A stretch of DNA of 55,818 bases, taken from contig JAJYGQ010000001.1 of assembly GCA_021785065.1 (NCBI GenBank), positions 1-55,818 on the forward strand. Direction: 5' to 3'. Source of the DNA: a bacterium (GTDB taxonomy: Bacteria > Patescibacteriota > Minisyncoccia > Phycocordibacterales > JAKAEA01). A model generated the notes under the pieces. It was not told where the DNA came from, ran no database searches, and saw nothing but the letters and a program-made list of their open reading frames with translations. The first letter of the stretch is position 1, and every line of letters begins with the position of its first letter. This document shows, one piece after another, positions 886-44,100 of the stretch. Made by a program: the position numbers and the translations under genes.

Positions 886-985
886 AGCACGACTCTAGCG
901 CACGGGTGTTAAAATTTCATATAATTCTTTTTTAAGAAAAAATAAATATCACTTGCTCAGTCTTTGTGCTATAATTACCAGTAAA

Positions 986-2104: not shown

Positions 2105-2170
2105 GTTGTCCACAGCTTCAGTATTCAATGTCCAAAAAAATAATATTGAAAATGGTAGAATAAGGTTCTC

Positions 2171-3300: not shown

Positions 3301-3305
3301 CACGT

Positions 3306-3716: not shown

Positions 3717-3743
3717 CACGTATCGTTCTGTTTTTATTTTGTC

Positions 3744-5510: not shown

Positions 5511-5558
5511 AGTGATTACAGAGCGTGCTATACTAGTTAGTGAGCCCACCTATACATT

Positions 5559-5969
5559 ATGGAACAAAAAAATTCTTCGGACGGTAAGAAAATAATGATT
5601 GTTGATGATGACGCGTTTCTGCTCAATATCTACGGAACGCGCTTTGCTAAAAGTGGCTTTGTGGTCAACGAATTTGCTGATTCTACAGCAGCGCTCGAAA
5701 AAATTCGCAACGGTTTTACGCCTGATATCCTTCTTCTTGATGTACTTATGCCCGCAATGAATGGTCTTGATATGCTCGAAAAGTTACGTACGGAAAAACT
5801 TTTACCCGAGACAGTAACTGTGATTATTCTCACTAATCAGAGTGACTCAGCGGAAATAACTCGAGGAAAATCATTAGGTATTGACGGTTACATTATCAAG
5901 GCAACGAGTATTCCGTCGGAAGTCGTCGACACGGTTATTACTCTAAGTCAAAAACACACAAAAAAATAA
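5559..5969 (+). CDS. Single-domain response regulator (CheY-like receiver)
   Basis: IMIVDDD, LLLDVLMP phosphoacceptor Asp, LTN, YIIKA; no output domain. Confidence 0.9.
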   Translation: MEQKNSSDGKKIMIVDDDAFLLNIYGTRFAKSGFVVNEFADSTAALEKIRNGFTPDILLLDVLMPAMNGLDMLEKLRTEKLLPETVTVIILTNQSDSAEITRGKSLGIDGYIIKATSIPSEVVDTVITLSQKHTKK

Positions 5970-5972
5970 TTT

Positions 5973-7031: not shown

Positions 7032-7037
7032 TTGTCT

Positions 7038-8249: not shown

Positions 8250-8264
8250 AAAAGTATAATTTAC

Positions 8265-8310
8265 TTATCCACAACTATTTTACGCAATCCCTTCATTTAT
8301 TGCGTATAAT
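8265..8310 (+). promoter_or_regulatory. Major pilin promoter with perfect DnaA box
   Basis: TTATCCACA at 8265-8273; TATAAT at 8305-8310. Confidence 0.6.
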
Positions 8311-8390
8311 AGTATTTACATCAGGCAGGTCACTGCGCGCGTCGGCACCGTGACAGGCCAGGATTTAAAAGTCAGATTAATTATTATCAA

Positions 8391-8834
8391 ATGAAAAAAC
8401 TTCAATCGAAAGGTTTTACCCTTATCGAACTCTTGGTGGTCATCGCCATCATCGGCATCCTGGCCGCCATCGTTCTTGCTTCGTTGAGTACTGCTCGTTC
8501 TAAGGCAGAAGGAGCTAAAGTTGAAAGTCAGCTTAACGAAATGCGTAGTGCTGCGGAAATTTATGATACGACTAATGGTAACTATAGTGGTAGTGGAACT
8601 GCTACAACTACAAGTTGCACTAGTGGTATATTTGCGGACACATCTTCTAATATGGCTACTTTAGTAGCTAATACCACAGCAATATCTGGTGTTACACTTG
8701 CCTGTCAGGCATTTGGAACAGGATGGTCTGCTGTAGCAACTTACTCAGCTCTGCCCAATGGCACCTTCTGTGTTGACTCAACTGGTGCTGCCACTTCAAC
8801 AACAGTTAATAGCAGTACTGGTTTGTGTAAATAG
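8391..8834 (+). CDS. pilA: Type IV pilin, probable major pilin
   Basis: KG/FTLIELLVVIAIIGILAAIV class III signal with Glu5; C-terminal Cys pairs; own promoter and strong terminator. Confidence 0.88.
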   Translation: MKKLQSKGFTLIELLVVIAIIGILAAIVLASLSTARSKAEGAKVESQLNEMRSAAEIYDTTNGNYSGSGTATTTSCTSGIFADTSSNMATLVANTTAISGVTLACQAFGTGWSAVATYSALPNGTFCVDSTGAATSTTVNSSTGLCK

Positions 8835-8862
8835 ACTTAAGGCACTACTTAAGTTAGTTTCG

Positions 8863-8893
8863 AACAAAATCCCCACCACGGGGATTTTGTTTT
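8863..8893 (+). terminator. Intrinsic terminator after major pilin
   Basis: AACAAAATCCCC-accac-GGGGATTTTGTT 12-bp stem ending in a T-rich run. Confidence 0.8.
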
Positions 8894-8918
8894 GGCGCAG
8901 ATGGCGTACAATGAAGCA

Positions 8919-9467
8919 ATGAATCGTCGCGGTTTTACGCTCATTGAGTTAATTATTGTTATCGGCATCATCGCTATTTTGGCCGGATTTATTTTGGCGA
9001 GCTATGGGCCGGCGAAGCAGCAGGCCCAAGATTCGCGGCGCGTTTCTGACATAGCGCAGCTACAGACGGCGCTTGAAGCATATTTCGAAGATCCGATAAA
9101 CGGGAGTCAGTATCCGCCAACAGAAGTTCAGACAAATGCAAATGGTGTCTTGATTCAACCTTGTAAGCCTGCAAGTGGCGCTGGTAGCAATCCTAAAACA
9201 TCTGGACTTGCCTGTTTGCCATATGGTGGTTATATCTCATCATTGCCTACTGATCCGCAAACAAAAGCCGCCTACGATTATTATGCTAATCCTACCGCGA
9301 ATCCTGATACGGGTACGCCCTACCAATCCTATTGTCTTGGGGCGAATCTCGCTGATACTAATGCGGCGGGTAATGCTCTGCAGAGCGCAAAAACAAGTTG
9401 CAGCGGCGTTACGTGGTGTCCGTTTTTAAATAATTCTTCTGACAATTACGTCGTCTGTCGACAGTAG
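8919..9467 (+). CDS. Type IV pilin / GspG-like pseudopilin
   Basis: RG/FTLIELIIVIGII, AQDSRRVSDIAQLQTALEAY, LPTDPQT. Confidence 0.88.
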   Translation: MNRRGFTLIELIIVIGIIAILAGFILASYGPAKQQAQDSRRVSDIAQLQTALEAYFEDPINGSQYPPTEVQTNANGVLIQPCKPASGAGSNPKTSGLACLPYGGYISSLPTDPQTKAAYDYYANPTANPDTGTPYQSYCLGANLADTNAAGNALQSAKTSCSGVTWCPFLNNSSDNYVVCRQ

Positions 9468-9500
9468 GGAAGTAAAGTTTGCTATAATGCGAGTAACATT

Positions 9501-10277
9501 ATGTCTCCCATTTTTCTCATTGTCGTCGCGTTCATTCTCGGTACGATTATCGGCAGTTTCCTCAATGTGCTCATTTTACGCTGGAATACTGGTGAATCGA
9601 TTGCAGTAGATAGGTCGCGGTGTTTTTCGTGCGGCCGAACGTTGCGCTGGTACGAGCTCATTCCGGTATTTAGTTTTCTTATCCAGGGCGGGCGTTGTCG
9701 GACCTGCGCTAGTCGGATTAGTTGGCAATACCCTTTAGTAGAAATGGGAACAGGGGTACTTTTTGCGCTGGTCGCGTGGCTTTTTCCGCCGCTTTCGCTT
9801 GTGGCGATACTCGCTGATGCGTTGTATTTGGCAATAATAAGCACACTCATGGTGATTTCCGTCTATGACCTCCGCCACAAAATCATTCCCGATCTCCTTG
9901 CATATTTTTTTGCTTTTTTGAGCATCGTACTTATTTTATTGCAGGCCAGCGTCGGTGTTTTTAGCTGGTGGAGTATTGCGGCGGGACCACTTTTGGCGTT
10001 GCCGCTCTTTTTGCTCTGGCTTATCTCCGGCGGCCGGTGGATGGGTCTCGGAGATAGTAAGCTTATGCTTGGCATTGGCTGGTTTCTCGGTCTTAATGCC
10101 GGCGGCGCCGCGCTCGTGTTAGCGTTTTGGATTGGCGCGATTGTGGGCATTGTGCTTATTGCCGCGAAGCATTTACGCTTAAAAAGCGAAGTGCCATTTG
10201 CTCCCTTCTTAATCATCGGCGCTCTGCTGGTCTTCTTTACCGGCCTCACCTTTACCAGTCTCGCCCTGTTGCTATGA
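9501..10277 (+). CDS. pilD: Prepilin peptidase/N-methyltransferase
   Basis: IGSFLNV, RSRCFSC...GRCRTC zinc motif, YDLRHKIIPD and GLGDSKL catalytic Asp motifs. Confidence 0.95.
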   Translation: MSPIFLIVVAFILGTIIGSFLNVLILRWNTGESIAVDRSRCFSCGRTLRWYELIPVFSFLIQGGRCRTCASRISWQYPLVEMGTGVLFALVAWLFPPLSLVAILADALYLAIISTLMVISVYDLRHKIIPDLLAYFFAFLSIVLILLQASVGVFSWWSIAAGPLLALPLFLLWLISGGRWMGLGDSKLMLGIGWFLGLNAGGAALVLAFWIGAIVGIVLIAAKHLRLKSEVPFAPFLIIGALLVFFTGLTFTSLALLL

Positions 10278-20995: not shown

Positions 20996-23071
<2,076 letters not shown>

Positions 23072-23118: not shown

Positions 23119-23649
23119 CTAGGAAAAAGCACTCCTTAAGGTATCGTCCTTAAGCAGTGCTTTTTTATATGCAAGTTTTTCTTTGAGGCGATCAATATAT
23201 TGTATTTTATCTTGAGCAGATTGCTTTAATAATATAGAACAATGTTCTTTATCGGCACTTATTAATTTTTCCAATTTACCTTGCTCGTAAAGATGGCGAA
23301 CAAGAGAATAAAAATCTCCATCACTAGAGACAATAATTGCTCCATGAAATTGATGCCAATTAATAAGGACTTGAAAAACTAAGTCAGCATCGACATTACC
23401 TTTTATAAAGCCATTAGTATCTGGAATAGTTGGTTTGAATTTTAAGATAAAATTTATTTCTTCTAAAAAAGTGTATAGTTTTTGATTGGTCGGCAAAAAT
23501 CCAATAAACAGATACGCTTTCTGAACGTGATATTTTTCTTGCAAATAAATTCTGAATCGTCGATAATCCAGTTTCCATCCCAGTTTCTTAATACCTAAAT
23601 TAAGATTTTGTCCATCTATGAAAGCATAATTATGTATTGTTTTCTTCAT
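23119..23649 (-). CDS. NYN domain protein (LabA/DUF88, PIN-like fold)
   Basis: AFIDGQNL, KGNVDADL, IVSSDGDFYSLV; AT-rich. Confidence 0.9.
   Translation of the reverse strand: MKKTIHNYAFIDGQNLNLGIKKLGWKLDYRRFRIYLQEKYHVQKAYLFIGFLPTNQKLYTFLEEINFILKFKPTIPDTNGFIKGNVDADLVFQVLINWHQFHGAIIVSSDGDFYSLVRHLYEQGKLEKLISADKEHCSILLKQSAQDKIQYIDRLKEKLAYKKALLKDDTLRSAFS
23124..23166. terminator. Bidirectional terminator-like hairpin inside the NYN 3' end
   Basis: AAAAAGCACT-cc-TTAAGG-tatcgt-CCTTAA-gc-AGTGCTTTTT; U-tracts on both strands. Confidence 0.7.
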
Positions 23650-33586: not shown

Positions 33587-34513
33587 ATGTTTTGGACCAC
33601 CAATAAACGAATCATAAAAGCCGGTTTTGTTGGTTTTTGGCGCAACGGTTTTGTGTCACTTTCGTCGATTGTGGTGATGACCGTGACACTCTTGGTTATT
33701 ATTGCTAGTCTCTTTTTTAGTATTATTTTTGGGGCCACCCTTAATCAAATAAAAAATCAGGTTGATATTACCGTGTATTTTGTTACGACTGCTTCAACGA
33801 GCGATGAACTTGCTTTGCAAAAATCAGTCGACGCGCTGCCGGAAGTGGCGACGAGCACCTACATTTCCGCTGACCAGGCCCTGGCTAATTTTAAGCAGCG
33901 TCACGCGACCGACGAGCTAACGCTCCAGGCCCTCGATGAAATTAACGGCAATCCTCTTGGCGCCGAGCTTAACATTAAAGCAAAAGATCCGTCGCAGTAT
34001 GCGGATATTGCCTCGTTCTTGCAATCGCAAAGCGTGTCGCCGACAAACGGCTTACCGATTATCGATACGGTTAATTACAATCAAAATCAGGCCGCGATTA
34101 ATAAGTTAACGGCAATTATTGACGGCGGGCGGCGACTGGCCATTATCATCATTGCTCTCATGGTGGCCATCTCACTTCTCATCACCTACAATACCATTCG
34201 CCTGGCTATTCACGCGTCACGCGAAGAAATCGCCGTGGAGCGACTGGTCGGCGCCAGTTCACGTTTTGTGCGTGGACCGTTTGTTATTGTGGGTATTATG
34301 TGTGGACTTGTCTCGGCTATTCTTGCTGCGGTGGCTTTGTATCCAGCAACCTATTACCTGGCTCAAGCCACTACCACTTTCTTTATCGGTTTCAATATTT
34401 TCAATTATTATCTCGCTAATTTCAGCCAAGTGTTCCTTGTGCTTTTGGCGAGCGGTATTATAATTGGAGCGATTTCTAGTTGGCTGGCCGTGCGCCGCTA
34501 TCTTAAAGTATGA
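33587..34513 (+). CDS. ftsX: Cell division permease FtsX
   Basis: Four-TM layout, NTIRLAIHASREEI, LVGASSRFVRGPF, AVRRYLK. Confidence 0.92.
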   Translation: MFWTTNKRIIKAGFVGFWRNGFVSLSSIVVMTVTLLVIIASLFFSIIFGATLNQIKNQVDITVYFVTTASTSDELALQKSVDALPEVATSTYISADQALANFKQRHATDELTLQALDEINGNPLGAELNIKAKDPSQYADIASFLQSQSVSPTNGLPIIDTVNYNQNQAAINKLTAIIDGGRRLAIIIIALMVAISLLITYNTIRLAIHASREEIAVERLVGASSRFVRGPFVIVGIMCGLVSAILAAVALYPATYYLAQATTTFFIGFNIFNYYLANFSQVFLVLLASGIIIGAISSWLAVRRYLKV

Positions 34514-36318
34514 GCAAACATCACAAATACGTTTTTGTTATCGGAGGCGTTATGTCCGGCGTGGGCAAAGGTATCGCCACCTCCGCTATCGGCCAAATTC
34601 TCCACGCAAAAGGTTTCCGGGTCAATCCAATCAAGATTGACCCTTATTTAAATGTGGATGCCGGCACGATGAATCCGACGGAGCACGGTGAAGTGTTTGT
34701 GCTCGACTCTGGTCTCGAGACTGATCAAGACATGGGCAATTACGAGCGCTTTTTGGAACTCGATTTAACGCCGGAAGATTATATGACGAGCGGCATGATT
34801 TATAAGCACGTCATCGAGCGTGAGCGCAATCTCGGCTATGGCGGCAAATGTGTGGAAGCTATCCCGCATATTACCGGCGAAATCGTGCGGCGCATTGTCG
34901 CGGCAGCTGATAAAACTCGCTCTGATATTTCGCTCGTGGAAATCGGCGGCACGGTGGGCGACTATCAAAACATGCTCTTTCTCGAAGCGGCGCGCATCTT
35001 GCGTCTGCGTCAGCCGGAAAGCGTGTGCTTTATTTTGGTGAGCTTTTTGCCGGTACCCTCGAAGCTTGGCGAAATGAAAACAAAACCAACGCAGACGGCG
35101 GTGCGTATGCTGAATAGCTACGGTATCCAGCCAGACATTATCATCGCTCGCTCCACCCATCCGCTTGATGCGCGGCGTAAAGAAAAAATCGGTGTGTCGT
35201 GCAACATTCATGGCGACCGGGTAATTTCCGCGCCCGACATTGATTCTATTTACGATGTTCCCGTTAATTTTGAAAAAGACCACATCGGCGAAACTATTCT
35301 CGACGTCTTACGGATGAAGCCGAAACACAATGGCGCGGCACTCGCTCCTTGGCGAAAATTTGTCGCGAAAACTAAGAACGGCAATCGCGACGTCAACATT
35401 GCCGTCGTGGGGAAGTATTTTGATTCAGGTGACTTTGTGCTTTCTGATGCGTATCTTTCGGTGATTGAAGCGGTGAAATTTTCAGCCTATTGGCAAAATA
35501 CCCAGCCCAAGCTCACCTGGATTAATGCTAAAGAATACGAGACGGGGGAGCGTAAGGTGAGCGAGCTTGCGCGTTTCGACGGCATCATCGTGCCCGGCGG
35601 TTTTGGCACCTCAGGTATCGAGGGGGTAATCAGCGCTATTAGATACGCGCGTGAGCATAAAATTCCTTATTTTGGTCTCTGCTACGGTATGCAGCTTTTG
35701 GTGGTTGAATATGCCCGGCACGTGGCAAAGCTGCGTCACGCTCACACTGTTGAAGTTGATCCGCAAAGTCCCGTACCTATTATCGACATTATGCCCGACC
35801 AAAAGAAACTTTTGGCGAGTGGTCACTACGGCGCCACGATGCGCCTCGGTGCCTATCCGGCAAAATTGAAGCGCGGTACTATAGCGCGCGAAGCGTATGG
35901 TCGCGATCGTATTTCCGAGCGTCACCGTCATCGCTACGAAGTAAATCCGGCATTCATCAATAAGCTCGCTGCTGCCGGTCTTGTGTTCTCAGGTACATCG
36001 CCCGACGACACCCTGATGGAAATTGCCGAGCTGGCCCGTGAAGAACATCCTTTTATGCTCGGCACCCAATTTCATCCGGAGTTCAAAGCCCGCCCCCTTT
36101 CGCCGCATCCGCTTTTCAATGCATTCATCGCCGCCGCGCTGAAGCGCGAACGCGCCACCAAGTCGCCGACCTCCACAAAAAATCAATCAAGAAAATCAGC
36201 CAAGCCAGTCAAAGCTACGCGTATCTCAAAAGCCGCGCTTGCTACTAAGCCTGCTAATGTCGCCTCCCTCTCAGCGCGCCGACTCTTGAACAAAAGCGCC
36301 GTTTCCAGTATTGTGTAG
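34510..36318 (+). CDS. pyrG: CTP synthase with basic C-terminal tail
   Basis: GGVMSGVGKG, KIDPYLNVDAGTMNP, GLCYGMQ, ERHRHRYE, QFHPEF. Confidence 0.98.
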   Translation: MSKHHKYVFVIGGVMSGVGKGIATSAIGQILHAKGFRVNPIKIDPYLNVDAGTMNPTEHGEVFVLDSGLETDQDMGNYERFLELDLTPEDYMTSGMIYKHVIERERNLGYGGKCVEAIPHITGEIVRRIVAAADKTRSDISLVEIGGTVGDYQNMLFLEAARILRLRQPESVCFILVSFLPVPSKLGEMKTKPTQTAVRMLNSYGIQPDIIIARSTHPLDARRKEKIGVSCNIHGDRVISAPDIDSIYDVPVNFEKDHIGETILDVLRMKPKHNGAALAPWRKFVAKTKNGNRDVNIAVVGKYFDSGDFVLSDAYLSVIEAVKFSAYWQNTQPKLTWINAKEYETGERKVSELARFDGIIVPGGFGTSGIEGVISAIRYAREHKIPYFGLCYGMQLLVVEYARHVAKLRHAHTVEVDPQSPVPIIDIMPDQKKLLASGHYGATMRLGAYPAKLKRGTIAREAYGRDRISERHRHRYEVNPAFINKLAAAGLVFSGTSPDDTLMEIAELAREEHPFMLGTQFHPEFKARPLSPHPLFNAFIAAALKRERATKSPTSTKNQSRKSAKPVKATRISKAALATKPANVASLSARRLLNKSAVSSIV

Positions 36319-36326
36319 TCTCATCT

Positions 36327-36400
36327 TGCGGGTTCGTCTAATGGTAGGACACATGCCTCTGGAGCATGGTATTGGGGTTCGAGTCCCTGACCCGCAGCCA
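36327..36400 (+). tRNA. tRNA-Gln(CTG); anchor of the cassette array
   Basis: TGCGGGT/ACCCGCA acceptor with U1-A72, CATGC-CTCTGGA-GCATG, G73 CCA. Confidence 0.95.
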
Positions 36401-36444
36401 CCACGAGCTAGCTCATTTGTCAAGAGGTGACTGAGCAGGTGCTC
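36376..36444 (+). repeat. Array repeat R0 (tRNA 3' end plus flank; L type)
   Basis: GG-TTCGAGT-CCCTG-ACCCGCA-GCCA then CCAC-GAGCTAGCTC-ATTTGTCAAGAGGTG...GAGCA-GG-TGCTC. Confidence 0.85.
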
Positions 36445-36460
36445 TTGTTCCTCGCGGTAT

Positions 36461-36505
36461 TTGAGCAGCGCTCGAGACGCGTTCGAGTCCCCGAGAGGGC
36501 AGTCC
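36461..36505 (+). repeat. Array repeat R1 (S type)
   Basis: First 36 nt identical to R5 (TTGAGCAGCGCTCGAGACGCGTTCGAGTCCCCGAGA), then GGGCAGTCC. Confidence 0.9.
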
Positions 36506-36513
36506 GTAGAAAC

Positions 36514-37167
36514 ATGAATAAAAAAATATTGAAAAAATTGGAATTAGTCGCGAGAGAACGGCAAACAAAAGATGACCCGTCTCATGATTTTGAGCATATC
36601 AGACGTGTCTTGAATGTCGCCATTAAAATCAGTAAAAGCGTCGGAGCAGATCTGGATGTGGTAATCCCAGCGGCACTTTTTCATGACACAGTGGTATATC
36701 GTAAGAATTCTCCACAAAGCAAAAACGAATCAAATGAAAGCGCGGAAGTTGCCGCATCTATTCTTAAAAAAACCAATGGATATCCTGAACACAAGATTAA
36801 AGATGTTGAAACATGCATTCGGCAATGCTCTTTCACAAAAGGAATAGTTCCTGAGCTTTTAGAACCAAAGGTTCTTCAAGACGCAGATTTGCTTGAGTCA
36901 ATGGGGGCGCTATCAATTATGCGAACGTTTTCTTCCGGCGGGCAGATGAACAGGTCATTTTACAATCATAAAAACCCTTTCTATGAAAAAAACGAAAAAG
37001 ATTTTCCTTCCGGAATCGGCTTATTTTACCGGCGTTTATTGATCGCTGATACAAGGCTTCACACCGCTTTTGCCAAGAGAATAGCAAAACGACGCACATC
37101 GTTTCTAAAGAAATTCCTTGCTCAAGTAGAAGCTGAACTCAAAGAATCAGGCGTATTGAAGGTTTAA
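36514..37167 (+). CDS. HD-domain metal-dependent phosphohydrolase
   Basis: SHDFEHIRRV, AALFHD, VLQDADLLESMGALSIMRTF; ATG 36514 (the track start lies within the repeats). Confidence 0.88.
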   Translation: MNKKILKKLELVARERQTKDDPSHDFEHIRRVLNVAIKISKSVGADLDVVIPAALFHDTVVYRKNSPQSKNESNESAEVAASILKKTNGYPEHKIKDVETCIRQCSFTKGIVPELLEPKVLQDADLLESMGALSIMRTFSSGGQMNRSFYNHKNPFYEKNEKDFPSGIGLFYRRLLIADTRLHTAFAKRIAKRRTSFLKKFLAQVEAELKESGVLKV

Positions 37168-37170
37168 TGG

Positions 37171-37208
37171 CTTAAAATAGTTCAGATACCCGCCCAGACG
37201 ATCAACCA
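37171..37208 (+). repeat. Array repeat R2 (M type)
   Basis: TAAAATAG-TTCAGAT-ACCCG-CCCAG-ACGATCA-ACCA; closely matches R7. Confidence 0.75.
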
Positions 37209-37673
37209 ATGAATCCCAGGAAAAATAAAAACAATAAAGATGAGTTCGAAAAAATTCGAAAGCAAATTTCTATTTTATTTCCACAAAAAATCAAATTAGG
37301 ATTCTACATTCAAAATTATAAAGATTCCAGAGGTGTCAAAAATCAAAAATTAAAAAATGTGTTAGCCAGCGGTGTAGCTTTTATTGAAGGTGATCAAGTT
37401 GATTTTAGACAATATCGTCATGCGGATAAAGGAACTCACCAGTTCGATGTTGACGAGATTGAAGGAATAAACAAGGATTACGTTATGGTAAAGTCAAAAA
37501 ATGATATTCAAGATCACCATCTCGACAAATCTATTCCGGATGATCTCATGTCTAAGAGAAATTTGGTTTTAGAGGTTATTGAAGATAAAGATGGGACTTT
37601 CAGATTGAATTCTGACGGAAATGGAATGGTAAGGGCCTATATTAGTTTTCCAGATCCTTTTAATAAAAAATAG
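37209..37673 (+). CDS. Hypothetical protein (cassette gene)
   Basis: 154 aa, charged, AT-rich, exactly bounded by R2 and R3. Confidence 0.65.
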   Translation: MNPRKNKNNKDEFEKIRKQISILFPQKIKLGFYIQNYKDSRGVKNQKLKNVLASGVAFIEGDQVDFRQYRHADKGTHQFDVDEIEGINKDYVMVKSKNDIQDHHLDKSIPDDLMSKRNLVLEVIEDKDGTFRLNSDGNGMVRAYISFPDPFNKK

Positions 37674-37674
37674 A

Positions 37675-37701
37675 TTCCAGTCCTGTAACACACGGCAGTC
37701 A
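37675..37701 (+). repeat. Array repeat R3 (highly degenerate)
   Basis: TTCCAGT-CCTGTAACA-CACGGCA-GTCA, starting 1 nt after the stop codon. Confidence 0.45.
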
Positions 37702-37748
37702 CCGTTCAATGTACACATAATCTTATCTCTAAATGATAAAATATGTGT

Positions 37749-39020
37749 ATGAATATCTTGGTTGTTGGAAGCGGTGGACGAGAACACGCTCTTGTTTGGA
37801 AACTACAGCAGTCTCCCAGAGTTACAAAAATTTTTGTCGCGCCCGGGAATGCTGGTACTTCTGCTCTGGCGACAAATATACCGATTTCTGAAACTCGCGA
37901 AATAATTGATTGGCTAAAAAGCAATCCAATAGATTTAGTAGTCATCGGGCCTGATGCATATCTCGCGGAAGGCATCGTTGATAAAATCCAAAAAATCGGA
38001 ATCACTGTTTTTGGCCCGACCAAGGCAGCTGCAGAGATTGAATGGTCAAAATCATTTGCGAAAAATTTAATGCAAGAAGAGGGTATACCGACTGCCTCTT
38101 TCAAGATTTTTAATAATTTTGTTGAAGCCGATTCCTATATCAAACATCGACAATTCCCGTTAGTTATAAAAGCCAATGGTCTGGCTTTGGGTAAGGGAGT
38201 CATAATTGCGGAAGATGTAATTCAAGCAAAAAAAGCACTTAAGGAAATAATGGAAGATAAAGTATTTGGTAAGGCGGGGAGCGAAGTAATCATCGAAGAG
38301 TGCCTTAAAGGACAGGAAATTTCCGTACACGCTTTTTGCGATGGAACCAATGCGGTACTTTTTCCTTCTTCTCAAGACCATAAAAGAATATTTGACGGCG
38401 ACAGCGGTCCAAACACCGGCGGTATGGGAACAATTGCGCCCGTCCCTTGGGTTACCAAAGATCAGATGAAAGAAATAGAAGAGAAGATAGTTCTACCGAC
38501 GCTGCAGGCTCTTAAAAAGAGAGGTAGAACTTTCAGGGGTATTTTGTATCCAGGAATAATGATAACGAAAACGGGTCCGAAAGTTATCGAATTCAACGCT
38601 CGTTTCGGCGATCCAGAAACCCAATCGTATATGCGCATTCTTGACGCAGACTTACTCGACATTCTCATCGCTTGTTCAGAGGGGAATATCGCATCGAAAC
38701 AGATTCAATGGTCAAAAAAATATTCGTGTTGCGTTGTTTGCACGTCAGGCGGATACCCGGCAGCCTATGAAAAAGATAAAGTGATAAAAGGATTAGACAT
38801 TCCCGGAAATAATGACATCGTTATTTTCCATGCTGGCACAAAAACACGCGGAGATAAAATAGTAACAAATGGCGGGCGAGTTTTGGGTATTACGGCAATC
38901 GGGAATAATTTATCAGAAGCGCTTTCGAGTGCGTACGCAAGTCTTCAGTCGCTGTCTTTCTCTGGTATGCAATATAGAAAAGATATTGGTGCTAAATCTA
39001 TGGGTCGGAATCAGGTATAA
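37749..39020 (+). CDS. purD: Phosphoribosylamine-glycine ligase
   Basis: VVGSGGREHAL, APGNAG, KANGLALGKGV, QDHKR, PNTGGMG, EFNARFGDPETQ, TNGGRVL. Confidence 0.96.
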   Translation: MNILVVGSGGREHALVWKLQQSPRVTKIFVAPGNAGTSALATNIPISETREIIDWLKSNPIDLVVIGPDAYLAEGIVDKIQKIGITVFGPTKAAAEIEWSKSFAKNLMQEEGIPTASFKIFNNFVEADSYIKHRQFPLVIKANGLALGKGVIIAEDVIQAKKALKEIMEDKVFGKAGSEVIIEECLKGQEISVHAFCDGTNAVLFPSSQDHKRIFDGDSGPNTGGMGTIAPVPWVTKDQMKEIEEKIVLPTLQALKKRGRTFRGILYPGIMITKTGPKVIEFNARFGDPETQSYMRILDADLLDILIACSEGNIASKQIQWSKKYSCCVVCTSGGYPAAYEKDKVIKGLDIPGNNDIVIFHAGTKTRGDKIVTNGGRVLGITAIGNNLSEALSSAYASLQSLSFSGMQYRKDIGAKSMGRNQV

Positions 39021-39026
39021 TAATTT

Positions 39027-39103
39027 GGTTCGAATACCCGTCCCAGACGGCCAGCCACCACGAGCTAGCTATTTTACCAAGAGGTGCTTGAACAGGTGTT
39101 CAA
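39027..39103 (+). repeat. Array repeat R4 (L type)
   Basis: GG-TTCGAAT-ACCCGT-CCCAG-ACGGCCA-GCCA then CCACGAGCTAGCT-ATTTTACCAAGAGGTG...TTGAACA-GG-TGTTCAA. Confidence 0.88.
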
Positions 39104-39162
39104 ATTCCATAGAAAAGTACTACGTGTGTAATCATGGGAGAAAATTCGATACTATTCTTATA

Positions 39163-39840
39163 ATGAAAGTTTCTTTTGTAAATCGGACAAGATTAATTTT
39201 GACTATTCTTGTTGCGTTACTAGTTGTAATTGTTGCTACTTATATATATTTCTCATTTAATACAAACAGTATTGTCAATCAGGTTACAATTACTCTGGTT
39301 CCTACTAATGTCTCTCTTCCCTCGGTCACTTCAATAAATTCTAAAAATGAATTACCTCCACTCATTCCTTATGAATCTTTTCCAAATAAAACAGCGTTTA
39401 TTCGTGGGAATCCCACAAGCTATATAAATGGCCTAAACTCAAACGACGCCTATTTGTATAAGATTGGTTCAACTACCTATATCACAACCACCGTTAACCC
39501 AAGTGGTTGCTCGTTTACCACTTGCGATATCTCAACCCTATACTATCTCCATGGTAACAATGCTATAAAAATAATTGGCGACCTCAGTGAAAGTATCGAG
39601 AATTACGATTATTTGGGAGAAGAAGGAAATGCTATGTATGCAGATAGAAGGGGGAATGTTTTTACTGTAAGTAATAACGGCACAACAATGTATTTAATCA
39701 AGAATGCTAAAGTGGTGGGGGAGGTTAACGGTGTAGCGACTTTACCATTCGAATTAAAGATGTTTAGTGATAATAAACACACCTACCTCATTATAAATGG
39801 GGCGTATGGCGTTACTAAAAAGTATGAGATTGTTTTTTAG
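39163..39840 (+). CDS. Membrane-anchored extracellular hypothetical protein (cassette gene)
   Basis: ATG 39163 gives an N-terminal TM (LILTILVALLVVIVATYIYF); the track start overlaps purD and R4. Confidence 0.65.
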   Translation: MKVSFVNRTRLILTILVALLVVIVATYIYFSFNTNSIVNQVTITLVPTNVSLPSVTSINSKNELPPLIPYESFPNKTAFIRGNPTSYINGLNSNDAYLYKIGSTTYITTTVNPSGCSFTTCDISTLYYLHGNNAIKIIGDLSESIENYDYLGEEGNAMYADRRGNVFTVSNNGTTMYLIKNAKVVGEVNGVATLPFELKMFSDNKHTYLIINGAYGVTKKYEIVF

Positions 39841-39870
39841 GATGGATGACATATTTTACATAGTATAATC

Positions 39871-39914
39871 TTGAGCAGCGCTCGAGACGCGTTCGAGTCC
39901 CCGAGATGGCAGCC
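39871..39914 (+). repeat. Array repeat R5 (S type)
   Basis: First 36 nt identical to R1, then TGGCAGCC. Confidence 0.9.
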
Positions 39915-39936
39915 TGTAAAATGATATGATTACTCT

Positions 39937-40488
39937 ATGAAGACAGAAATAGAAACAAGATTTTTAGAGATAAATAAAAATCACCTGATCGTTACATTAC
40001 AGGCGTTGGGCGCGGCAGATAAAGGAGAAGTTAAATTGGATGAAATAATATTCTACGATAAATATTTAACCTGGATGAAAGATGGTAAACTCGTAAAAAT
40101 AAGGAGAAAGGGAGACGATATAAAATTGATATTTAAAAACAATAAAGAGAAAACCATTGAAGGTGTTCAAGAAATCGAATTCAAGATTCCAAACATTGCA
40201 GAGGTAAAATCTTTTTTAGAAGCGATAGGGTTGATTGCCTACAGAACGATTGAAAAATATCGGCATTCATTTGAGCTAGATGGGGCGGTGATCGATATCG
40301 ATACTTGGCCGAAAATTCCCGTGTATGTTGAAATAGAAGGGGACTCGGCTGAAAACGTAAAAGGTATTGCCGAGAAATTGGGATTTAATTGGGAAGACCG
40401 ATTTGATGGGGATCCGAGGGTTGTTTTCAAGAAATATGGTTTCGATTTGGACAAAATCAGAACGGTAACATTTGATACTTTTGAATAA
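39937..40488 (+). CDS. CYTH domain protein (class IV adenylate cyclase/triphosphatase-like)
   Basis: N-terminal ExExR (EIETRF), KIRRKG, EKYRHSF, IDIDTWP, VEIEG. Confidence 0.85.
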   Translation: MKTEIETRFLEINKNHLIVTLQALGAADKGEVKLDEIIFYDKYLTWMKDGKLVKIRRKGDDIKLIFKNNKEKTIEGVQEIEFKIPNIAEVKSFLEAIGLIAYRTIEKYRHSFELDGAVIDIDTWPKIPVYVEIEGDSAENVKGIAEKLGFNWEDRFDGDPRVVFKKYGFDLDKIRTVTFDTFE

Positions 40489-40491
40489 ATC

Positions 40492-41010
40492 ATGGAAAAA
40501 CTGAACGCAAATCAAGAAAACGGCAGTGAATCGGAGAATTTCATAGAGGCGTCGGATGTTGTGGTTAGTCCGGAAACTGGTTTGGCCATGGTGGTGATAA
40601 AACCTGACGCTTTTAAAAAAGAAGGTGAGATTATAAAGAGACTTGAAGGGTCTGGCTTGTATGTCGTCAAAAAAGTAGCAAAAAGATTGCCGGACAAATT
40701 TGTGATCGGTACGATGTATAAAGAGTTACCCAAGACCATTGAAAAAGAAACCCTACGTCATTTTAATGCCGGTCCATCGGAAATCGTGCTTGTCAGAGGC
40801 GGTGACGATGTTCTAAAAAAGGTTATTACAGTAACGGGCGAAAATACTAATCCGGCCCAATGTGATGAACAAAGTATCAGATATGTTTTTGGTGAGCACG
40901 TTGGTCGAAAAACTTCAGATGGTAGGAAATACTTTCGCAACGCGGTTCACCGGTCAAAAGACGAAAAAGAGCAAAGCGAAGATCTAGAAAAATTTAAGGA
41001 TTTGTTATAG
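40492..41010 (+). CDS. Nucleoside diphosphate kinase-like protein
   Basis: MVVIKPDA, TGENTNP...SIRYVFG, NAVHRS with catalytic His. Confidence 0.8.
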   Translation: MEKLNANQENGSESENFIEASDVVVSPETGLAMVVIKPDAFKKEGEIIKRLEGSGLYVVKKVAKRLPDKFVIGTMYKELPKTIEKETLRHFNAGPSEIVLVRGGDDVLKKVITVTGENTNPAQCDEQSIRYVFGEHVGRKTSDGRKYFRNAVHRSKDEKEQSEDLEKFKDLL

Positions 41011-41016
41011 ATTTCC

Positions 41017-41045
41017 GTTCGAATACCCTCCCACGCGGCCAGCCA
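41017..41045 (+). repeat. Array repeat R6 (M type)
   Basis: G-TTCGAAT-ACCCT-CCCAC-GCGGCCA-GCCA. Confidence 0.85.
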
Positions 41046-41080
41046 ATTTACATAACGTATATAATAAGATAGAAAATAGT

Positions 41081-41758
41081 ATGGAATCCGTAAAACAAAA
41101 TCTGCCGAACGAAGAAGAGGTTCGTCTGGAGGCGATGAAAATCTACAACGAGCTTCTTAAAGAGCCGGAGATTTCCGAAGCTCTGAATTTACTCGATTCA
41201 CTCCCGAAAAATCTGAAATACCACAATAAAGATCACACGCTTGATGTTTTAAGAGAAACTATTTTGTTTGCTGTGGCAGACGGATTGGATGAGGAAGCAA
41301 TCAAACTTCAGGCCATAGCAGCGGCGTGGCATGATGTCGGCTATGTGCAAAGGTACGAAAACAATGAACCTGTGGCGGTAGAGTTGTTTAAGGGTAGTCA
41401 GGCATTTAAAACCCTATCAGAAGAGCAGAGAGATGAGGTCGTTGCCATAATTTTAGATACGCAAATGGTCATGAAAGACGGTAGACCATTTCTTCTCCAA
41501 CAAAGAAGTCACTCCGGATATGTTTTGGATGGTGATGTCAGCAACTTTGGTAGGCAAGATTATTTGGAGAAAAGAATGGACGTTGCTCAAGAATTGAACT
41601 TGGATCTGTCAAATTCAGAGGTAAAGAAAAAATTTTTCGCTTTTGCTCTAGAGTTGTTAAAAAATCACCAGTGGAAAACAAAATCAGCCCAAGTATTTCG
41701 GAAAAAGCAAAAAGACAATAATCTGGCGTTACTTGAAGAAGAGTACGCTAAGCTGTAG
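41081..41758 (+). CDS. HD-domain phosphohydrolase (PDEase-like YHN motif)
   Basis: YHNKDHTLDV, AAAWHDVG, DGDVSNFG. Confidence 0.82.
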   Translation: MESVKQNLPNEEEVRLEAMKIYNELLKEPEISEALNLLDSLPKNLKYHNKDHTLDVLRETILFAVADGLDEEAIKLQAIAAAWHDVGYVQRYENNEPVAVELFKGSQAFKTLSEEQRDEVVAIILDTQMVMKDGRPFLLQQRSHSGYVLDGDVSNFGRQDYLEKRMDVAQELNLDLSNSEVKKKFFAFALELLKNHQWKTKSAQVFRKKQKDNNLALLEEEYAKL

Positions 41759-41773
41759 AATCGACGTTAGCAG

Positions 41774-41810
41774 CTAAAATAGTTCGAATACCCTCCCAGA
41801 CGGTCAGTCC
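41774..41810 (+). repeat. Array repeat R7 (M type)
   Basis: CTAAAATAG-TTCGAAT-ACCCT-CCCAG-ACGGTCA-GTCC. Confidence 0.85.
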
Positions 41811-41828
41811 GATAAATTTACTCATTAT

Positions 41829-42263
41829 ATGAAATCAAAAACTACAGATTGTCCTTTCTGTGCGATCATAAATCAGCGTACGGAACGAATCGTTAGAGAA
41901 ACGAAAAATACTTTTTCGGTTCTAAGTAATCCATGTTTGATGCCAGGTCATCTATTAGTAATTCCAAAGCGTCATATTGAAAAAATAAGTGAGCTCACAA
42001 AAACTGAAAGAAATGAACTTTTTGATGAAGTTGCTGCGCTGCAAGAATTTGTTGTTAAAAAAATATCGCCAGGTTGTGATATTTCAGAACATTATCGGCC
42101 ATTCATTCCTAATGGTCGCTTAAAGGTCGGTCATTTACATGTTCACATTTGGCCGCGCTACCCTAATGATGAACTTTATGAAAAAGTTCAAGTATTTGAG
42201 AAAAATATCTTTAAAGATTTGTCTCAAGAGAAATTCGAAAAGTACAAAAAACTATACGAGTAA
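41829..42263 (+). CDS. HIT family hydrolase
   Basis: CPFC, GHLLVIPKRH, HLHVHIWPR histidine triad. Confidence 0.92.
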   Translation: MKSKTTDCPFCAIINQRTERIVRETKNTFSVLSNPCLMPGHLLVIPKRHIEKISELTKTERNELFDEVAALQEFVVKKISPGCDISEHYRPFIPNGRLKVGHLHVHIWPRYPNDELYEKVQVFEKNIFKDLSQEKFEKYKKLYE

Positions 42264-42283
42264 TGATATTATTGGTCTAAAGC

Positions 42284-42340
42284 GGTTCGAGTACCCTCCC
42301 TGACCCGCAGTCGCCACGAGCTAGCTCTTTTGTCAAGGGG
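42284..42340 (+). repeat. Array repeat R8 (L type; closest to the resident tRNA end)
   Basis: GG-TTCGAGT-ACCCT-CCCTG-ACCCGCA-G then CCAC-GAGCTAGCTC-TTTTGTCAAGGGG. Confidence 0.9.
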
Positions 42341-42410
42341 CGCTAACAATGTTTCTGAAAGAGTTTTTTGTATACTGAATCTCGCCCAATATTCATGCTA
42401 CTATAGAGCT

Positions 42411-42863
42411 ATGGACGAATGTATTTTTTGCAAAATTGTGCGGGGCGAAGCGCCGTGTCATAAAATAGGGGAGGATGAGCGCCACCTGGCTTTTCTTTCT
42501 ATTTTTCCTAACACCGAAGGTTTTTCAGTGGTGGTGACGAAGCAACACTACCCAAGCTATATTTTTGATTTACCTGAAGATGTACAAGCTGGTCTCGTAA
42601 TTGCGGCGGGTAAGGTAGGAAAACTGCTCGATCAAAAATTAGATGATGTCGGCAGAACGGGCCTGATGCTTGAAGGATTTGGCGTCAACCACGCGCACGC
42701 AAAACTTTTTCCGATGCATGGCACTAAAGACGCGACGTGGCACCCCAAAAAGTCTTCTCTCGACACATTTTTCAAGAAATATGAAGGTTACATTTCTTCG
42801 CACGATAGTAAAAGAGCCGACGATACCGAGCTCGAAAAGTTAGCAAAAAAAATACGCGGTTAG
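42411..42863 (+). CDS. HIT family protein (HxHxK variant)
   Basis: CIFCKIV, HAHAKLFP; ATG 42411. Confidence 0.85.
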   Translation: MDECIFCKIVRGEAPCHKIGEDERHLAFLSIFPNTEGFSVVVTKQHYPSYIFDLPEDVQAGLVIAAGKVGKLLDQKLDDVGRTGLMLEGFGVNHAHAKLFPMHGTKDATWHPKKSSLDTFFKKYEGYISSHDSKRADDTELEKLAKKIRG

Positions 42864-43647: not shown

Positions 43648-44100
43648 ATGACTAGAAAAGCTATATTTGTAGCGGTTATAACAATCCTGGCAACAGGTGT
43701 TTTAATCGCGCCAACCCAATACGCATTAGCGTGGGGTGGTAATTATGGTGGTTACGGTAATTATGGTGGTGGTAGCTACAATAATTACGGCGGTAATAAC
43801 TATGGTAATTATGGTGGTGGTAGCTACAATAATTACGGCGGTGGTGATTACGGTAATTATAATTGTGGTTGTGATAACCCCGTGCCACCGCCAGTAGTAT
43901 ATGCTCCACCGCCTATCTACGTTCCGCCCCCAACATTTACCTATTCACCGTGCCCGCCTTGGTATTCACCGTCCCCGCTTCGGGAAGATTACTCATACCA
44001 AAATTATAACTATGGCGGTAGCTACAATAATTACGGCGGTAATAACTATGGTACTTATGGTGGTAACAACTACAATAATTACGGTAGTGGCTGGTATTAA
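43648..44100 (+). CDS. Secreted Gly/Asn/Tyr-rich low-complexity protein
   Basis: Signal peptide (QYALA/W), tandem GGxYNNYGG repeats flanking a Pro-rich core. Confidence 0.7.
   Translation: MTRKAIFVAVITILATGVLIAPTQYALAWGGNYGGYGNYGGGSYNNYGGNNYGNYGGGSYNNYGGGDYGNYNCGCDNPVPPPVVYAPPPIYVPPPTFTYSPCPPWYSPSPLREDYSYQNYNYGGSYNNYGGNNYGTYGGNNYNNYGSGWY

What the first reader, a model, noticed from the sequence alone, without database searches (positions are those of the whole stretch)
36376..42340. Repeat anatomy: recurring 5-nt insertion, three subfamilies in L-S-x-x-L-S-x-x-L order, and compensatory dyads
Seen: (1) R2, R4, R6, R7 and R8 carry ACCC(T/G/GT) inserted exactly between the T-loop heptamer and the 3' T-stem strand, which destroys the T-arm; R8 is the resident end plus ACCCT. 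(2) L copies (R0, R4, R8) share about 30-45 nt beyond CCA, S copies (R1, R5) share 36 identical nt, and R2/R7 share TAAAATAG. (3) L copies contain the palindrome GAGCTAGCTC (36405, 42318; 9/10 at 39062) and a dyad with a compensatory change, GAGCA-GG-TGCTC (36433) vs TTGAACA-GG-TGTTCAA (39088); S copies start with the related TTGAGC-AGC-GCTCGA. (4) The R0-R1 interval looks like R4-R5 with its gene removed (an empty slot). Inference: the insertion marks the crossover or inactivates copies as tRNA/targets, the dyads are recombinase arm sites or ssDNA hairpins, and the periodicity suggests a duplicated scaffold refilled with different cargo. R3 assignment is weak.
Basis: partly seen in the sequence, partly recalled or inferred. 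Interest (0 to 1): 0.68.

Follow-up and report, generated by a model that had tools for sequence, protein, structure and literature searches.

The report
tRNA-anchored gene cassette array
Downstream of a glutamine tRNA gene in an uncultured Patescibacteria genome lies a strain-variable row of single-gene cassettes, each bounded by a short site that copies the tRNA's 3' end with five extra bases, which looks like an integron-style gene-shuffling system that has no recombinase gene nearby.

Summary
Five repeats (R2, R4, R6, R7, R8) are tRNA-Gln 3'-end look-alikes with ACCC(T/G/GT) inserted after the T-loop. The L tails, the two S copies, the palindromes and the 'empty' R0-R1 interval are at the stated coordinates. 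R3 is not detectable.

The region is a 6-kb, low-GC array of single-gene cassettes, mostly nucleotide-metabolism enzymes, inserted at the 3' end of tRNA-Gln(CTG) in a Patescibacteria MAG. Close relatives have the same tRNA and no array. A sister strain has one unrelated cassette between the same flanks. The same MAG holds a second array with three more sites of this type.

All 11 such 'M' sites carry the extra 5 nt, so it is a fixed family trait and not a recurring mutation. A three-way mosaic places the crossover in CGGCCAGC, at least 7 nt 3' of the insertion, around an invariant CA next to the CCA end.

The sites show no single-strand folding signal. The dyads are not conserved, and the L-S-x-x period does not recur.

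The 5-bp offset of the GTTCGART motif matches the attP/attB half-site geometry of large serine recombinases. This is an inference, and no recombinase was found.

Verdict: a new variant of tRNA-targeted integrative arrays.

The parts
36327..36400 (+). tRNA-Gln(CTG), the anchor of the array. GTTCGAGT is at 36377-36384, the invariant CA at 36395-36396 and the discriminator G at 36397. CCA is encoded twice (36398-36403).
   Evidence: ARAGORN and Rfam. The sister strain is 98.5% identical up to 36399 and then diverges.
36401..36460 (+). L tail 1. It contains CGAGCTAGCTC, TTTGTCAAGAGG and the dyad GAGCAGGTGCTC at 36433, with no gene (the 'empty' frame).
   Evidence: (D2). An equivalent tail follows tRNA-Gln-CCA in L069, L050 and L044.
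36461..36505 (+). S site 1 (R1). It has a standard-length tRNA-3'-end look-alike with no extra 5 nt (GTTCGAGT at 36481), preceded by AGCGCT-CGAG-ACGCGT.
   Evidence: (D5).
36514..37167 (+). Cassette ORF: HD phosphohydrolase (217 aa).
   Evidence: Pfam HD, 1.2e-8; NCBIfam phosphohydrolase.
37172..37208 (+). M site R2 (GTTCAGAT-ACCCG-CCCAGACGATCAACCA).
   Evidence: M profile E=3.6e-7.
37209..37673 (+). Cassette ORF of unknown function (154 aa). Its start codon abuts R2.
   Evidence: No Pfam, PHROG or PADLOC hit.
37674..37710 (+). R3 candidate. At best it is a decayed site (ACACGGC-AGTCACC against ACACGGCCAGCCACC).
   Evidence: Not detected by the M profile; sequence read.
37743..39020 (+). Cassette ORF: PurD (phosphoribosylamine-glycine ligase).
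   Evidence: TIGR00877, 525.7 bits; Pfam GARS_N/A/C.
39020..39057 (+). M site R4 (GTTCGAAT-ACCCGT-CCCAGACGGCCAG), followed by CCACCA.
   Evidence: M profile E=8.9e-10.
39058..39112 (+). L tail 2, with the dyad TTGAACAGGTGTTCAA at 39088.
   Evidence: D2. Only 6 of 1000 shuffles give as good a dyad.
39163..39840 (+). ORF inside the L-tail...S frame: a 225-aa protein with an N-terminal membrane helix.
39871..39915 (+). S site 2 (R5).
   Evidence: (D5): 92% identity to S1, with a 36-nt identical run.
39937..41010 (+). Two-gene cassette: CYTH (39937-40488) and an NDK-like gene (40492-41010).
   Evidence: Pfam. The same pair, 82% identical, sits in another context in L034.
41010..41045 (+). M site R6. 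Its first 27 nt are identical to site M_b of the second array.
41081..41758 (+). Cassette ORF: HD-like protein (225 aa).
   Evidence: A homologue is named 'HD domain-containing protein'. A 65%-identical homologue lies in the L118 array next to a CYTH gene.
41775..41809 (+). M site R7.
   Evidence: M profile E=3e-10.
41829..42263 (+). Cassette ORF: HIT-family hydrolase (144 aa).
   Evidence: Pfam HIT, 8.6e-13.
42277..42312 (+). M site R8. It equals the tRNA's own GTTCGAGT...CCCTGACCCGCAG with ACCCT inserted.
   Evidence: M profile E=1.4e-6.
42313..42390 (+). L tail 3 remnant, with no S site and no gene. It ends where similarity to the sister strain resumes (42391).
42411..42863 (+). Resident HIT-family gene, the right flank shared with the sister strain (90% identity).

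Best explanation
Window 36,400-42,390 is an array of small mobile gene cassettes inserted at the 3' end of tRNA-Gln(CTG).

Each cassette holds one or two genes, mostly nucleotide-handling enzymes. Each ends in a roughly 35-bp double-stranded recombination site that imitates the tRNA-Gln 3' half. There are two site types:
- 'M' has the T-loop octamer GTTCGART, five extra bases, and then an acceptor-like stretch ending in CAG.
- 'S' has tRNA-like spacing without the extra bases.

L is not a site type. It is a conserved cassette start (CCA-CCA-CGAGCTAGC...) that follows some sites.

Cassettes are gained, lost and swapped by site-specific recombination between these sites and the tRNA. The crossover lies at or next to the invariant CA just before the discriminator and CCA, so the tRNA stays intact. 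The recombinase is encoded elsewhere.

Shown here: the anatomy, the indel against relatives, the differing cassette content between strains, the second array, and the crossover interval.

Inferred: the enzymatic mechanism. My preferred specific version is a large serine recombinase that reads the tRNA as an attB-type half-site and M as an attP-type half-site. For that enzyme class, the distal binding motif sits 5 bp further from the crossover in attP than in attB.
For: Indel. Relatives with 84% and 80% identical PyrG keep pyrG-tRNA-Gln but have no array. The array is 37-42% GC against 48-53% upstream.

Strain variation. Sister strain L033 is 98.5% identical up to the end of the tRNA and 90% identical from 42391 onward. 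Between those points it has a single reversed NYN cassette plus one M site (729 bp), where the window has 5,991 bp.

Second array. The same MAG has a second array (L120) with three M sites and different cargo: His_Phos_1, S41-like, AAA_33 and a secreted protein.

Mosaic. The AAA_33 cassette is 99% identical in L034 and L120 but has different left neighbours. The neighbour in L034 is only 82% identical to the window's CYTH-NDK cassette. The switch falls inside the M site. Its first 19 nt carry 3 mismatches, as expected at 82% identity. From CGGCCAGC onward there are 6 mismatches in about 890 nt.

Site restriction. A profile of 11 M sites finds them only at cassette boundaries, always in tRNA orientation, even where the cassette gene is reversed and has its own terminator.

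CCA link. Among 48 relatives, an encoded CCA and the L tail co-occur (4 of 9 against 1 of 39, p=0.003). This is as expected if CCA plus tail arrives with the inserted DNA.

Wider distribution. A diverged array with the same cargo types and GTTCGANT cores in the spacers exists in L118.

Serine-recombinase geometry. GTTCGART lies at positions 12-19 from the invariant CA in the tRNA and at 17-24 in M. The published zinc-ribbon-domain motif positions are 11-19 in attB and 16-24 in attP (PMC3783163). The conserved GAGCTAGCTC lies at 10'-19' on the right of R0. Large serine recombinase genes sit next to tRNA-Gln in two related lineages.
Against: No recombinase gene was found in the array. None was found in most of the 55.8-kb window; several ORFs between about 8 and 23 kb were not scanned. 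None was found in the 13 kb around the second array.

No excision product or circular junction was seen. Only assembled contigs at about 9x depth were available.

The exact M sequence was not found in JGI metagenomes or viral contigs. The one genome-collection scan used a pattern that was too narrow.

Against the serine-recombinase version: sequences to the right of M at non-L cassettes share no motif. The right-hand motif of R0 is not the inverse of the left one. Repeated insertion at an attL-type site is not standard behaviour for these enzymes. S has spacing one base longer than the tRNA.

The acceptor-like part of consensus M (ACGGCCA) matches no tRNA-Gln among 48 relatives. R8 alone carries the resident sequence, and this is unexplained.
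Confidence: 0.6

Rival explanations
1. Fossil pile-up. The array is what remains of successive conventional tRNA-integrating elements that have lost their integrases. The M and S sites are dead attR scars. The differences between strains come from ordinary homologous recombination, for example after natural transformation, using the conserved scars and flanks as anchors.
For: tRNA-Gln is a general hot spot in this clade. About ten relatives carry partial copies of their own tRNA-Gln 3' end 75 nt to 3 kb downstream. L069 has a clean 3-kb islet with no integrase. The window encodes a type IV pilus system. The two flanks of the sister strain diverge unequally (98.5% against 90%), which suggests recombination in this region.
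Against: The units are single genes of 0.45-1.35 kb, and there are no integrase fragments anywhere. The M sites form one family with their own consensus and a fixed 5-nt extra, and are not a set of displaced ends from the resident tRNA. The same site type bounds cassettes at a second locus and, in diverged form, in a distant genome. A 27-35-nt repeat is a poor substrate for RecA-dependent exchange; this last point rests on general knowledge.
Confidence: 0.25
2. RNA-level punctuation. The tRNA-like pieces act in a long transcript as processing, stabilising or termination signals between genes.
For: All nine window ORFs are on the tRNA strand and tightly packed. No intrinsic terminator is predicted on the + strand of the array.
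Against: The sites lack a 5' half and show no fold above shuffles. They are not recognised as tRNA. They keep tRNA orientation where the neighbouring gene is reversed and has its own terminator, which places them upstream of that gene's promoter.
Confidence: 0.05
3. Integron-type system. The sites are attC-like elements that recombine as folded single strands, as the first reader's 'ssDNA hairpin' idea implies.
For: The array of mostly one-gene cassettes is co-oriented in the window and varies between strains. The crossover lies near one end of the site.
Against: There is no IntI gene. The M and S sites have no inverted-repeat architecture, and single-strand DNA folding is at chance (z from -0.9 to +1.8). 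The L-tail dyads are not conserved.
Confidence: 0.03
4. Assembly artefact. The repeats or the strain differences come from chimeric metagenome contigs.
For: L033 has an inverted duplication at its 5' end (nt 1-154), a typical contig-end artefact. The sister contigs are short.
Against: The window region is 100% identical in an independent NCBI assembly over 11 kb. The Logan contigs agree with it. The second array is present in both an NCBI and a Logan assembly. The repeats are far shorter than the k=141 used for the ENA contigs.
Confidence: 0.02

Closest known systems
Genomic islands integrated in tRNA/tmRNA genes, with a regenerated target and a displaced 3' fragment (Islander concept, PMC4383910). 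This includes the tandem ssrA islands of Dehalococcoides, which are made by a serine recombinase (PMC3146451).
   Same: There is an intact tRNA at one end and direct repeats of its 3' end downstream. Units are stacked in tandem. The region is absent from relatives. It is foreign in base composition.
   Different: No integrase lies in or beside the array. The units are single genes. The repeats are a family of their own, with 5 extra bases and an acceptor-like part unlike the resident tRNA, and are not displaced copies. The same sites occur at a second locus where no tRNA was seen in the 13 kb available.
Tycheposons and their remnants in Prochlorococcus islands (bioRxiv 10.1101/2020.12.28.424599, read).
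   Same: Both involve tRNA-adjacent flexible islands in a streamlined genome. Partial tRNA copies separate the cargo. Newer insertions push older ones inward.
   Different: Tycheposons carry their own integrase and replication module and are several kb long. Here no such genes exist and the repeat unit is a single cassette.
Integrons (IntI, attI, attC cassettes).
   Same: The logic is the same: a fixed anchor site followed by a variable row of one-gene cassettes. Each cassette ends in a conserved short site, and the crossover is at the end of the site.
   Different: There is no IntI. The sites are not folded hairpins. The anchor is a tRNA gene. Cassettes appear to carry their own -10-like boxes, and some are reversed.
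Large serine recombinase attP/attB half-site geometry (Rutherford et al. 2013, PMC3783163).
   Same: A 7-8-bp distal motif is present in both site types and is shifted by exactly 5 bp. Its positions (12-19 against 17-24 from an invariant dinucleotide) match the published 11-19 and 16-24.
   Different: Only the left half-sites behave this way. Right half-sites of internal junctions are not conserved. No recombinase was identified.
pdif modules of Acinetobacter plasmids (compared from my own knowledge, not tested here).
   Same: These are small gene modules bounded by short conserved recombination sites and moved by a recombinase encoded elsewhere.
   Different: pdif sites are XerC/XerD inverted-arm sites in alternating orientation. 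M sites have no such arms and all point the same way.

Membership tests
tRNA-integrated genomic island (Islander-type) | An intact target tRNA gene at one end | tested here: met
   tRNA-Gln(CTG) at 36327-36400, 55 bits in Rfam.
tRNA-integrated genomic island (Islander-type) | A displaced copy of the same tRNA's 3' end at the far end | tested here: inconclusive
   R8 carries the resident 21 nt but is interrupted by ACCCT. The sister strain has a non-resident consensus M site upstream of the same resident HIT gene.
tRNA-integrated genomic island (Islander-type) | An integrase gene inside the island | tested here: not met
   Pfam scans of all array ORFs and the precomputed Pfam hits for window positions about 24.5-52 kb show no recombinase.
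tRNA-integrated genomic island (Islander-type) | Presence/absence polymorphism against relatives | tested here: met
   L005 and L002/L003 lack the array, and L033 has different content.
Integron | An intI tyrosine recombinase next to the array | tested here: not met
   The upstream neighbour is pyrG. No recombinase was found within the region scanned, about ±10 kb of the array.
Integron | attC sites with imperfect inverted repeats that fold as single strands | tested here: not met
   DNA folds of the M, S and L-tail stretches give z from -0.9 to +1.8 against shuffles.
Integron | A variable array of mostly single-ORF cassettes separated by the sites | tested here: met
Tycheposon | An element-borne integrase plus replication genes | tested here: not met
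   None among the array ORFs.
Large serine recombinase att sites | The distal (zinc-ribbon-domain) motif is shifted 5 bp between attP-type and attB-type half-sites | tested here: met
   For the left half-sites, GTTCGART lies 10 nt from CA in the tRNA and 15-16 nt from it in all 11 M sites. The published rule was read.
Large serine recombinase att sites | An identical central dinucleotide in the partner sites | tested here: inconclusive
   CA is invariant in the tRNA, both S sites and all M sites, and it lies inside the mapped crossover interval. Cleavage at that point is not shown.
Large serine recombinase att sites | A second, roughly inverted half-site on the other side of the crossover | tested here: not met
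   Cassette starts after non-L M sites share no motif. GAGCTAGCTC to the right of R0 is at the expected distance but is not the inverse of GTTCGAGT.
Large serine recombinase att sites | A cognate recombinase gene in the genome | not testable with these tools
   Only two contigs of the MAG could be read. Such genes lie next to tRNA-Gln in the related lineages L047 and L057.
tRNA gene / pseudogene | Cloverleaf or at least both halves of the acceptor and T arms | tested here: not met
   Only R0 is called by ARAGORN and Rfam. The M and S sites have no 5' partner.

The most novel reading that the evidence does not exclude
Patescibacteria carry an integron-like but mechanistically distinct cassette system. 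A trans-encoded large serine recombinase treats the tRNA-Gln 3' half (plus the L tail) as an attB-type site. It treats each cassette's M site as an attP-type half-site, and the fixed 5-bp spacer is the feature that tells the two apart. This would let single nucleotide-salvage genes be shuffled in and out of several chromosomal arrays without ever damaging the tRNA.
Probability: 0.25. Interest if true: 0.8.

Novelty: new variant of a known kind. Interest (0 to 1): 0.62.

Why it matters
Patescibacteria (CPR) have tiny genomes and depend on scavenged nucleotides, and few mechanisms of gene flux are known for them. If this is an active cassette system, it would explain how single accessory enzymes are exchanged between strains. 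The cargo seen here includes HD, HIT, CYTH, NDK-like, NUDIX and PurD enzymes, kinases and phosphatases.

It would also be a natural case where one recombinase target differs from another only by a 5-bp spacer. That makes the site-discrimination rule for serine integrases directly testable. It could also yield a compact tRNA-targeting integration tool.

Tried and rejected
- Genome-collection scan with GTTCGARTACCCKCCCWSRC. It returned 23 single hits in unrelated high-GC taxa, about the number expected by chance.
- Metagenome and viral scans with GTTCGNAYACCCTCCCASRCGG. No hits.
- Viral scans with S and L-tail patterns. None for S, and one chance hit inside a coding region for the L tail.
- Rfam on the window and on six related loci. 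Only tRNAs were found.
- Promoter and terminator scan of the array. Counts were below or at the shuffle expectation, so the sites are not explained as sigma-70 promoters or intrinsic terminators.
- PADLOC on ten cassette proteins. Only a generic HIT match, so there is no sign of a defence island.
- PHROGs on unknown ORFs beside the L118 array and on two window unknowns. The only hit was a terminase-small-subunit-like match on one neighbouring L118 ORF.
- Search for a P-type site at the far end of the serine-recombinase elements in L047 and L057. None found, so these loci do not link that enzyme to M sites.
- Pfam on ten long ORFs downstream of tRNA-Gln in relatives. None was the recombinase. 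It was then located by motif.
- Reads laid on the tRNA region were uninformative, because the tRNA sequence is shared by many organisms in the sample.

Full report
**Source and setting.** The window is a metagenome contig from mine drainage (ENA ERZ27236914 k141_64636). The array region is 100% identical to a contig of NCBI MAG GCA_027328845.1. PyrG homologues place it in Patescibacteria / Paceibacteria. The finding lies between pyrG (34510-36318) and a resident HIT-family gene (42411-42863). It starts at tRNA-Gln(CTG), 36327-36400.

**Check of the observation.**
- Anchored on GTTCGART, the tRNA reads GTTCGAGT-CCCTGACCCGCAG-CCA.
- R8 reads GTTCGAGT-ACCCT-CCCTGACCCGCAG. R6 and R7 carry ACCCT, R2 carries ACCCG and R4 carries ACCCGT.
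- The motif GTTCRARTMCCC occurs 10 times in the window against 1.15 expected.
- R0, R4 and R8 share a tail after the CCA (78% and 65% identity over 69 nt).
- R1 and R5 share 51 nt at 92% identity, with a 36-nt identical run.
- The palindrome GAGCTAGCTC and the two dyads are where stated.
- R3 is not detected by a profile built from 11 sites. Only its 3' third resembles the family.

**What the region is.** The nine ORFs are all on the + strand. They encode an HD phosphohydrolase, an unknown 154-aa protein, a full-length PurD, a 225-aa membrane protein, CYTH plus an NDK-like protein, an HD-like protein and a HIT hydrolase. GC is 37-42% inside the array and 48-53% upstream.

The nearest relatives (PyrG 84% and 80% identical) keep the order prfB-ftsE-ftsX-pyrG-tRNA-Gln but have no array. 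Their tRNA does not encode CCA.

A sister strain (L033) is 98.5% identical up to the last base of the tRNA and 90% identical from window position 42391 onward. Between those points it has only 729 bp: a reversed NYN gene with its own terminator, and one site, GGTTCGGACACCCTCCCACACGGCCAG. The 5,991 bp of the window are therefore a strain-variable insert bounded on the left exactly by the tRNA 3' end.

**A second array and the site family.** A contig from another sample (L034) carries CYTH-NDK, a site, a reversed AAA_33 kinase gene, and a site followed by an L tail. The AAA_33 protein led to a second contig of the same MAG (L120), also present as a Logan contig at the same depth as the window. 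Read in site orientation, L120 holds His_Phos_1, a site, an S41-like gene, a site, the reversed AAA_33 gene, a site plus L tail, a secreted 225-aa protein, and then a resident helicase gene.

Together this gives 11 sites of the type I call M. All have the extra five bases, or six in R4, at the same place. All point the way the tRNA points, whichever way the neighbouring gene points. A profile of the 11 sites finds nothing else in the window or in about 1 Mb of related loci.

The 'recurring insertion' is therefore a fixed, inherited feature of one site family. Two copies in a distant AT-rich relative (L118) have the same 30-nt length. They are followed by tail-like and S-like sequence. That locus also has GTTCGANT cores in four spacers between small genes (HD-like, CYTH, NUDIX and others).

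**Where the crossover lies.**
- L034 is 99.0% identical to L120 over 916 nt (9 mismatches), an alignment that starts 8 nt upstream of the M site. To the left of the site, L034 is only 82% identical to the window's CYTH-NDK cassette. L120 has an unrelated cassette there.
- In the three-way alignment, the first 19 nt of the site carry 3 mismatches, which fits 82% identity. From CGGCCAGC onward L034 and L120 agree.
- The last letters of the site (CTA against CCA) travel with the downstream cassette.
- The exchange point is therefore within CGGCCAGC, at least 7 nt 3' of the inserted bases.
- Every site of every type, including the tRNA and S, has CA-G at this point.
- Among 48 tRNA-Gln genes of relatives, an encoded CCA and the L-tail motif go together (4 of 9 against 1 of 39, p=0.003). 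This is expected if CCA plus tail comes in with the inserted DNA.

**What L and S are.** L is a conserved cassette start and not a repeat subtype. The same CCA-(A/C)C(A/T)(C/T)GAGC(T/A)AGC tail follows tRNA-Gln in L044, L050 and L069. In L069 it runs straight into an S-start-like sequence, as in the window's 'empty' R0-R1 interval. The empty form may thus be the basic one, and R4-R5 a filled one.

S has the standard length of a tRNA 3' end, with a different acceptor-like sequence and no extra bases.

- Single-strand DNA folds of the M, S and L-tail stretches are no better than shuffles (z from -0.9 to +1.8). RNA folds of the whole intervals are also at chance.
- The R4 dyad beats shuffles (6 of 1000) and the R0 dyad barely does (71 of 1000). 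The tails of R8, L034, L120 and L069 have no dyad above chance.
- The compensated change is one base pair between two copies.
- The order L-S-x-x does not recur. L120 reads M, M, M+L and L034 reads M, M+L.

**Mechanism.** The evidence supports double-stranded, site-specific exchange at short tRNA-like sites by an enzyme encoded elsewhere. No recombinase gene was found in the array or in most of the window; several ORFs between about 8 and 23 kb were not scanned. None was found around the second array.

One published rule fits the five extra bases. For large serine integrases, a 7-8-bp motif bound by the zinc ribbon domain lies at positions 16-24 of attP half-sites and 11-19 of attB half-sites, a 5-bp shift (PMC3783163). 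Counting from the invariant CA, GTTCGART lies at 12-19 in the tRNA and at 17-24 in M. The conserved GAGCTAGCTC lies at 10'-19' to the right of the tRNA.

Genes for such recombinases lie next to tRNA-Gln, convergent with it, in two related lineages. I could not link those loci to M-type sites.

Against this reading, the right-hand sides of internal junctions are not conserved and S has spacing one base longer than the tRNA. I hold this version at about one in four.

**Rivals.** The main rival is a pile of decayed conventional elements reshuffled by homologous recombination. It is favoured by the fact that tRNA-Gln is a general hot spot in this clade: about ten relatives have partial copies of their own tRNA end downstream. 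It does not explain a site family with its own consensus that is spread over two loci and a distant genome. RNA punctuation, integron-type folded sites and assembly artefact are each contradicted by a direct test.

**Unexplained.** R8 alone has the resident tRNA's sequence to the right of the extra bases. The consensus M acceptor-like part (ACGGCCA) matches none of the 48 tRNA-Gln genes sampled. No tRNA was seen near the second array or in L118, although both contigs may simply end too early.

**Novelty.** I found no paper that describes tRNA-anchored cassette arrays in Patescibacteria. The nearest descriptions are tRNA/tmRNA islands, tandem ssrA islands and tycheposons.

Noticed in passing
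L120:8900-12989 (minus strand), same MAG as the window; also L121: A second cassette array in the same genome. It has three M sites and different cargo (His_Phos_1, S41-like, reversed AAA_33, a secreted 225-aa protein). It ends at a resident DEAD-box helicase gene. No tRNA lies in the 13 kb available.
   Followed up: yes
L072:6128-6322, L076:5447-5604, L108:2617-2766, L107:3633-3818: The 150-195 nt after tRNA-Gln in several relatives form a very stable rod-like fold (z from -6 to -7.8). It is built from an inverted copy plus a direct partial copy of that lineage's own tRNA-Gln 3' end. In L072, L076 and L108 the direct copy has a 13-14-nt insertion at the same T-loop/T-stem junction as the window's ACCCT. 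L072, L076 and L108 share an inner motif, GGTGTACWGAASCTGTAAGGTTCGAG. There is no Rfam match. It may be an undescribed RNA or a recombination site.
   Followed up: partly
L118:8200-13300: A diverged array in an AT-rich Paceibacterota genome. Small genes (inositol phosphatase, HD-like, CYTH, NUDIX, rhodanese) are separated by spacers with GTTCGANT cores, all in one orientation. Two M + tail + S-start composites are present. No tRNA lies within 20 kb.
   Followed up: partly
L047:13866-15197 (-) and L057:18124-18987 (+): Large serine recombinase genes lie directly beside tRNA-Gln and convergent with it in two related lineages. No M-like site was found at the far end of either element.
   Followed up: partly
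window 23119-23649 (-): An NYN-domain gene sits in a 36% GC pocket between a large ORF (20999-23071, not identified) and an apparent gatC just upstream of the amidase (gatA-like) gene. It is 37% identical to the NYN cassette of the sister strain. No M site is nearby, so it may be a separate small insertion.
   Followed up: partly
window 36398-36403: The tRNA-Gln gene is followed by an encoded CCACCA, whereas most relatives encode no CCA at all. The doubled CCA belongs to the L-tail unit.
   Followed up: partly
L069:9797-12765: A 3-kb islet with no integrase lies between tRNA-Gln and a clean partial copy that lacks the extra bases. By my reading of the ORFs, not a database match, it carries GTP-cyclohydrolase-like, cytidylate-kinase-like (frameshifted) and NTPase genes. 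That is the same nucleotide-metabolism theme as the window's cargo.
   Followed up: partly
L092, about 350 nt downstream of its tRNA-Gln (minus strand, near 15128): A single small ORF lies between tRNA-Gln and a partial copy of its 3' end. By eye it looks GIY-YIG-like. It is a one-gene unit in another lineage.
   Followed up: no
window 43648-44100: A Gly/Tyr/Asn-rich secreted protein is encoded by imperfect tandem repeats with a 24-nt period.
   Followed up: no
window 36150-36318: PyrG has a C-terminal extension of about 50 aa, rich in Lys, Ser and Ala, that relatives lack (602 aa against about 550 aa).
   Followed up: no
L033:1-154: The first 154 nt of the sister-strain contig are an inverted copy of part of its own NYN gene. 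This is probably a contig-end assembly artefact and does not touch the tRNA-cassette-flank junctions.
   Followed up: yes
window 953-10277: A type IV pilus gene set is present (PilM, PilO, PilB/PilT-type ATPases, PilC, prepilin peptidase). It would be compatible with DNA uptake as a route for cassette exchange.
   Followed up: no
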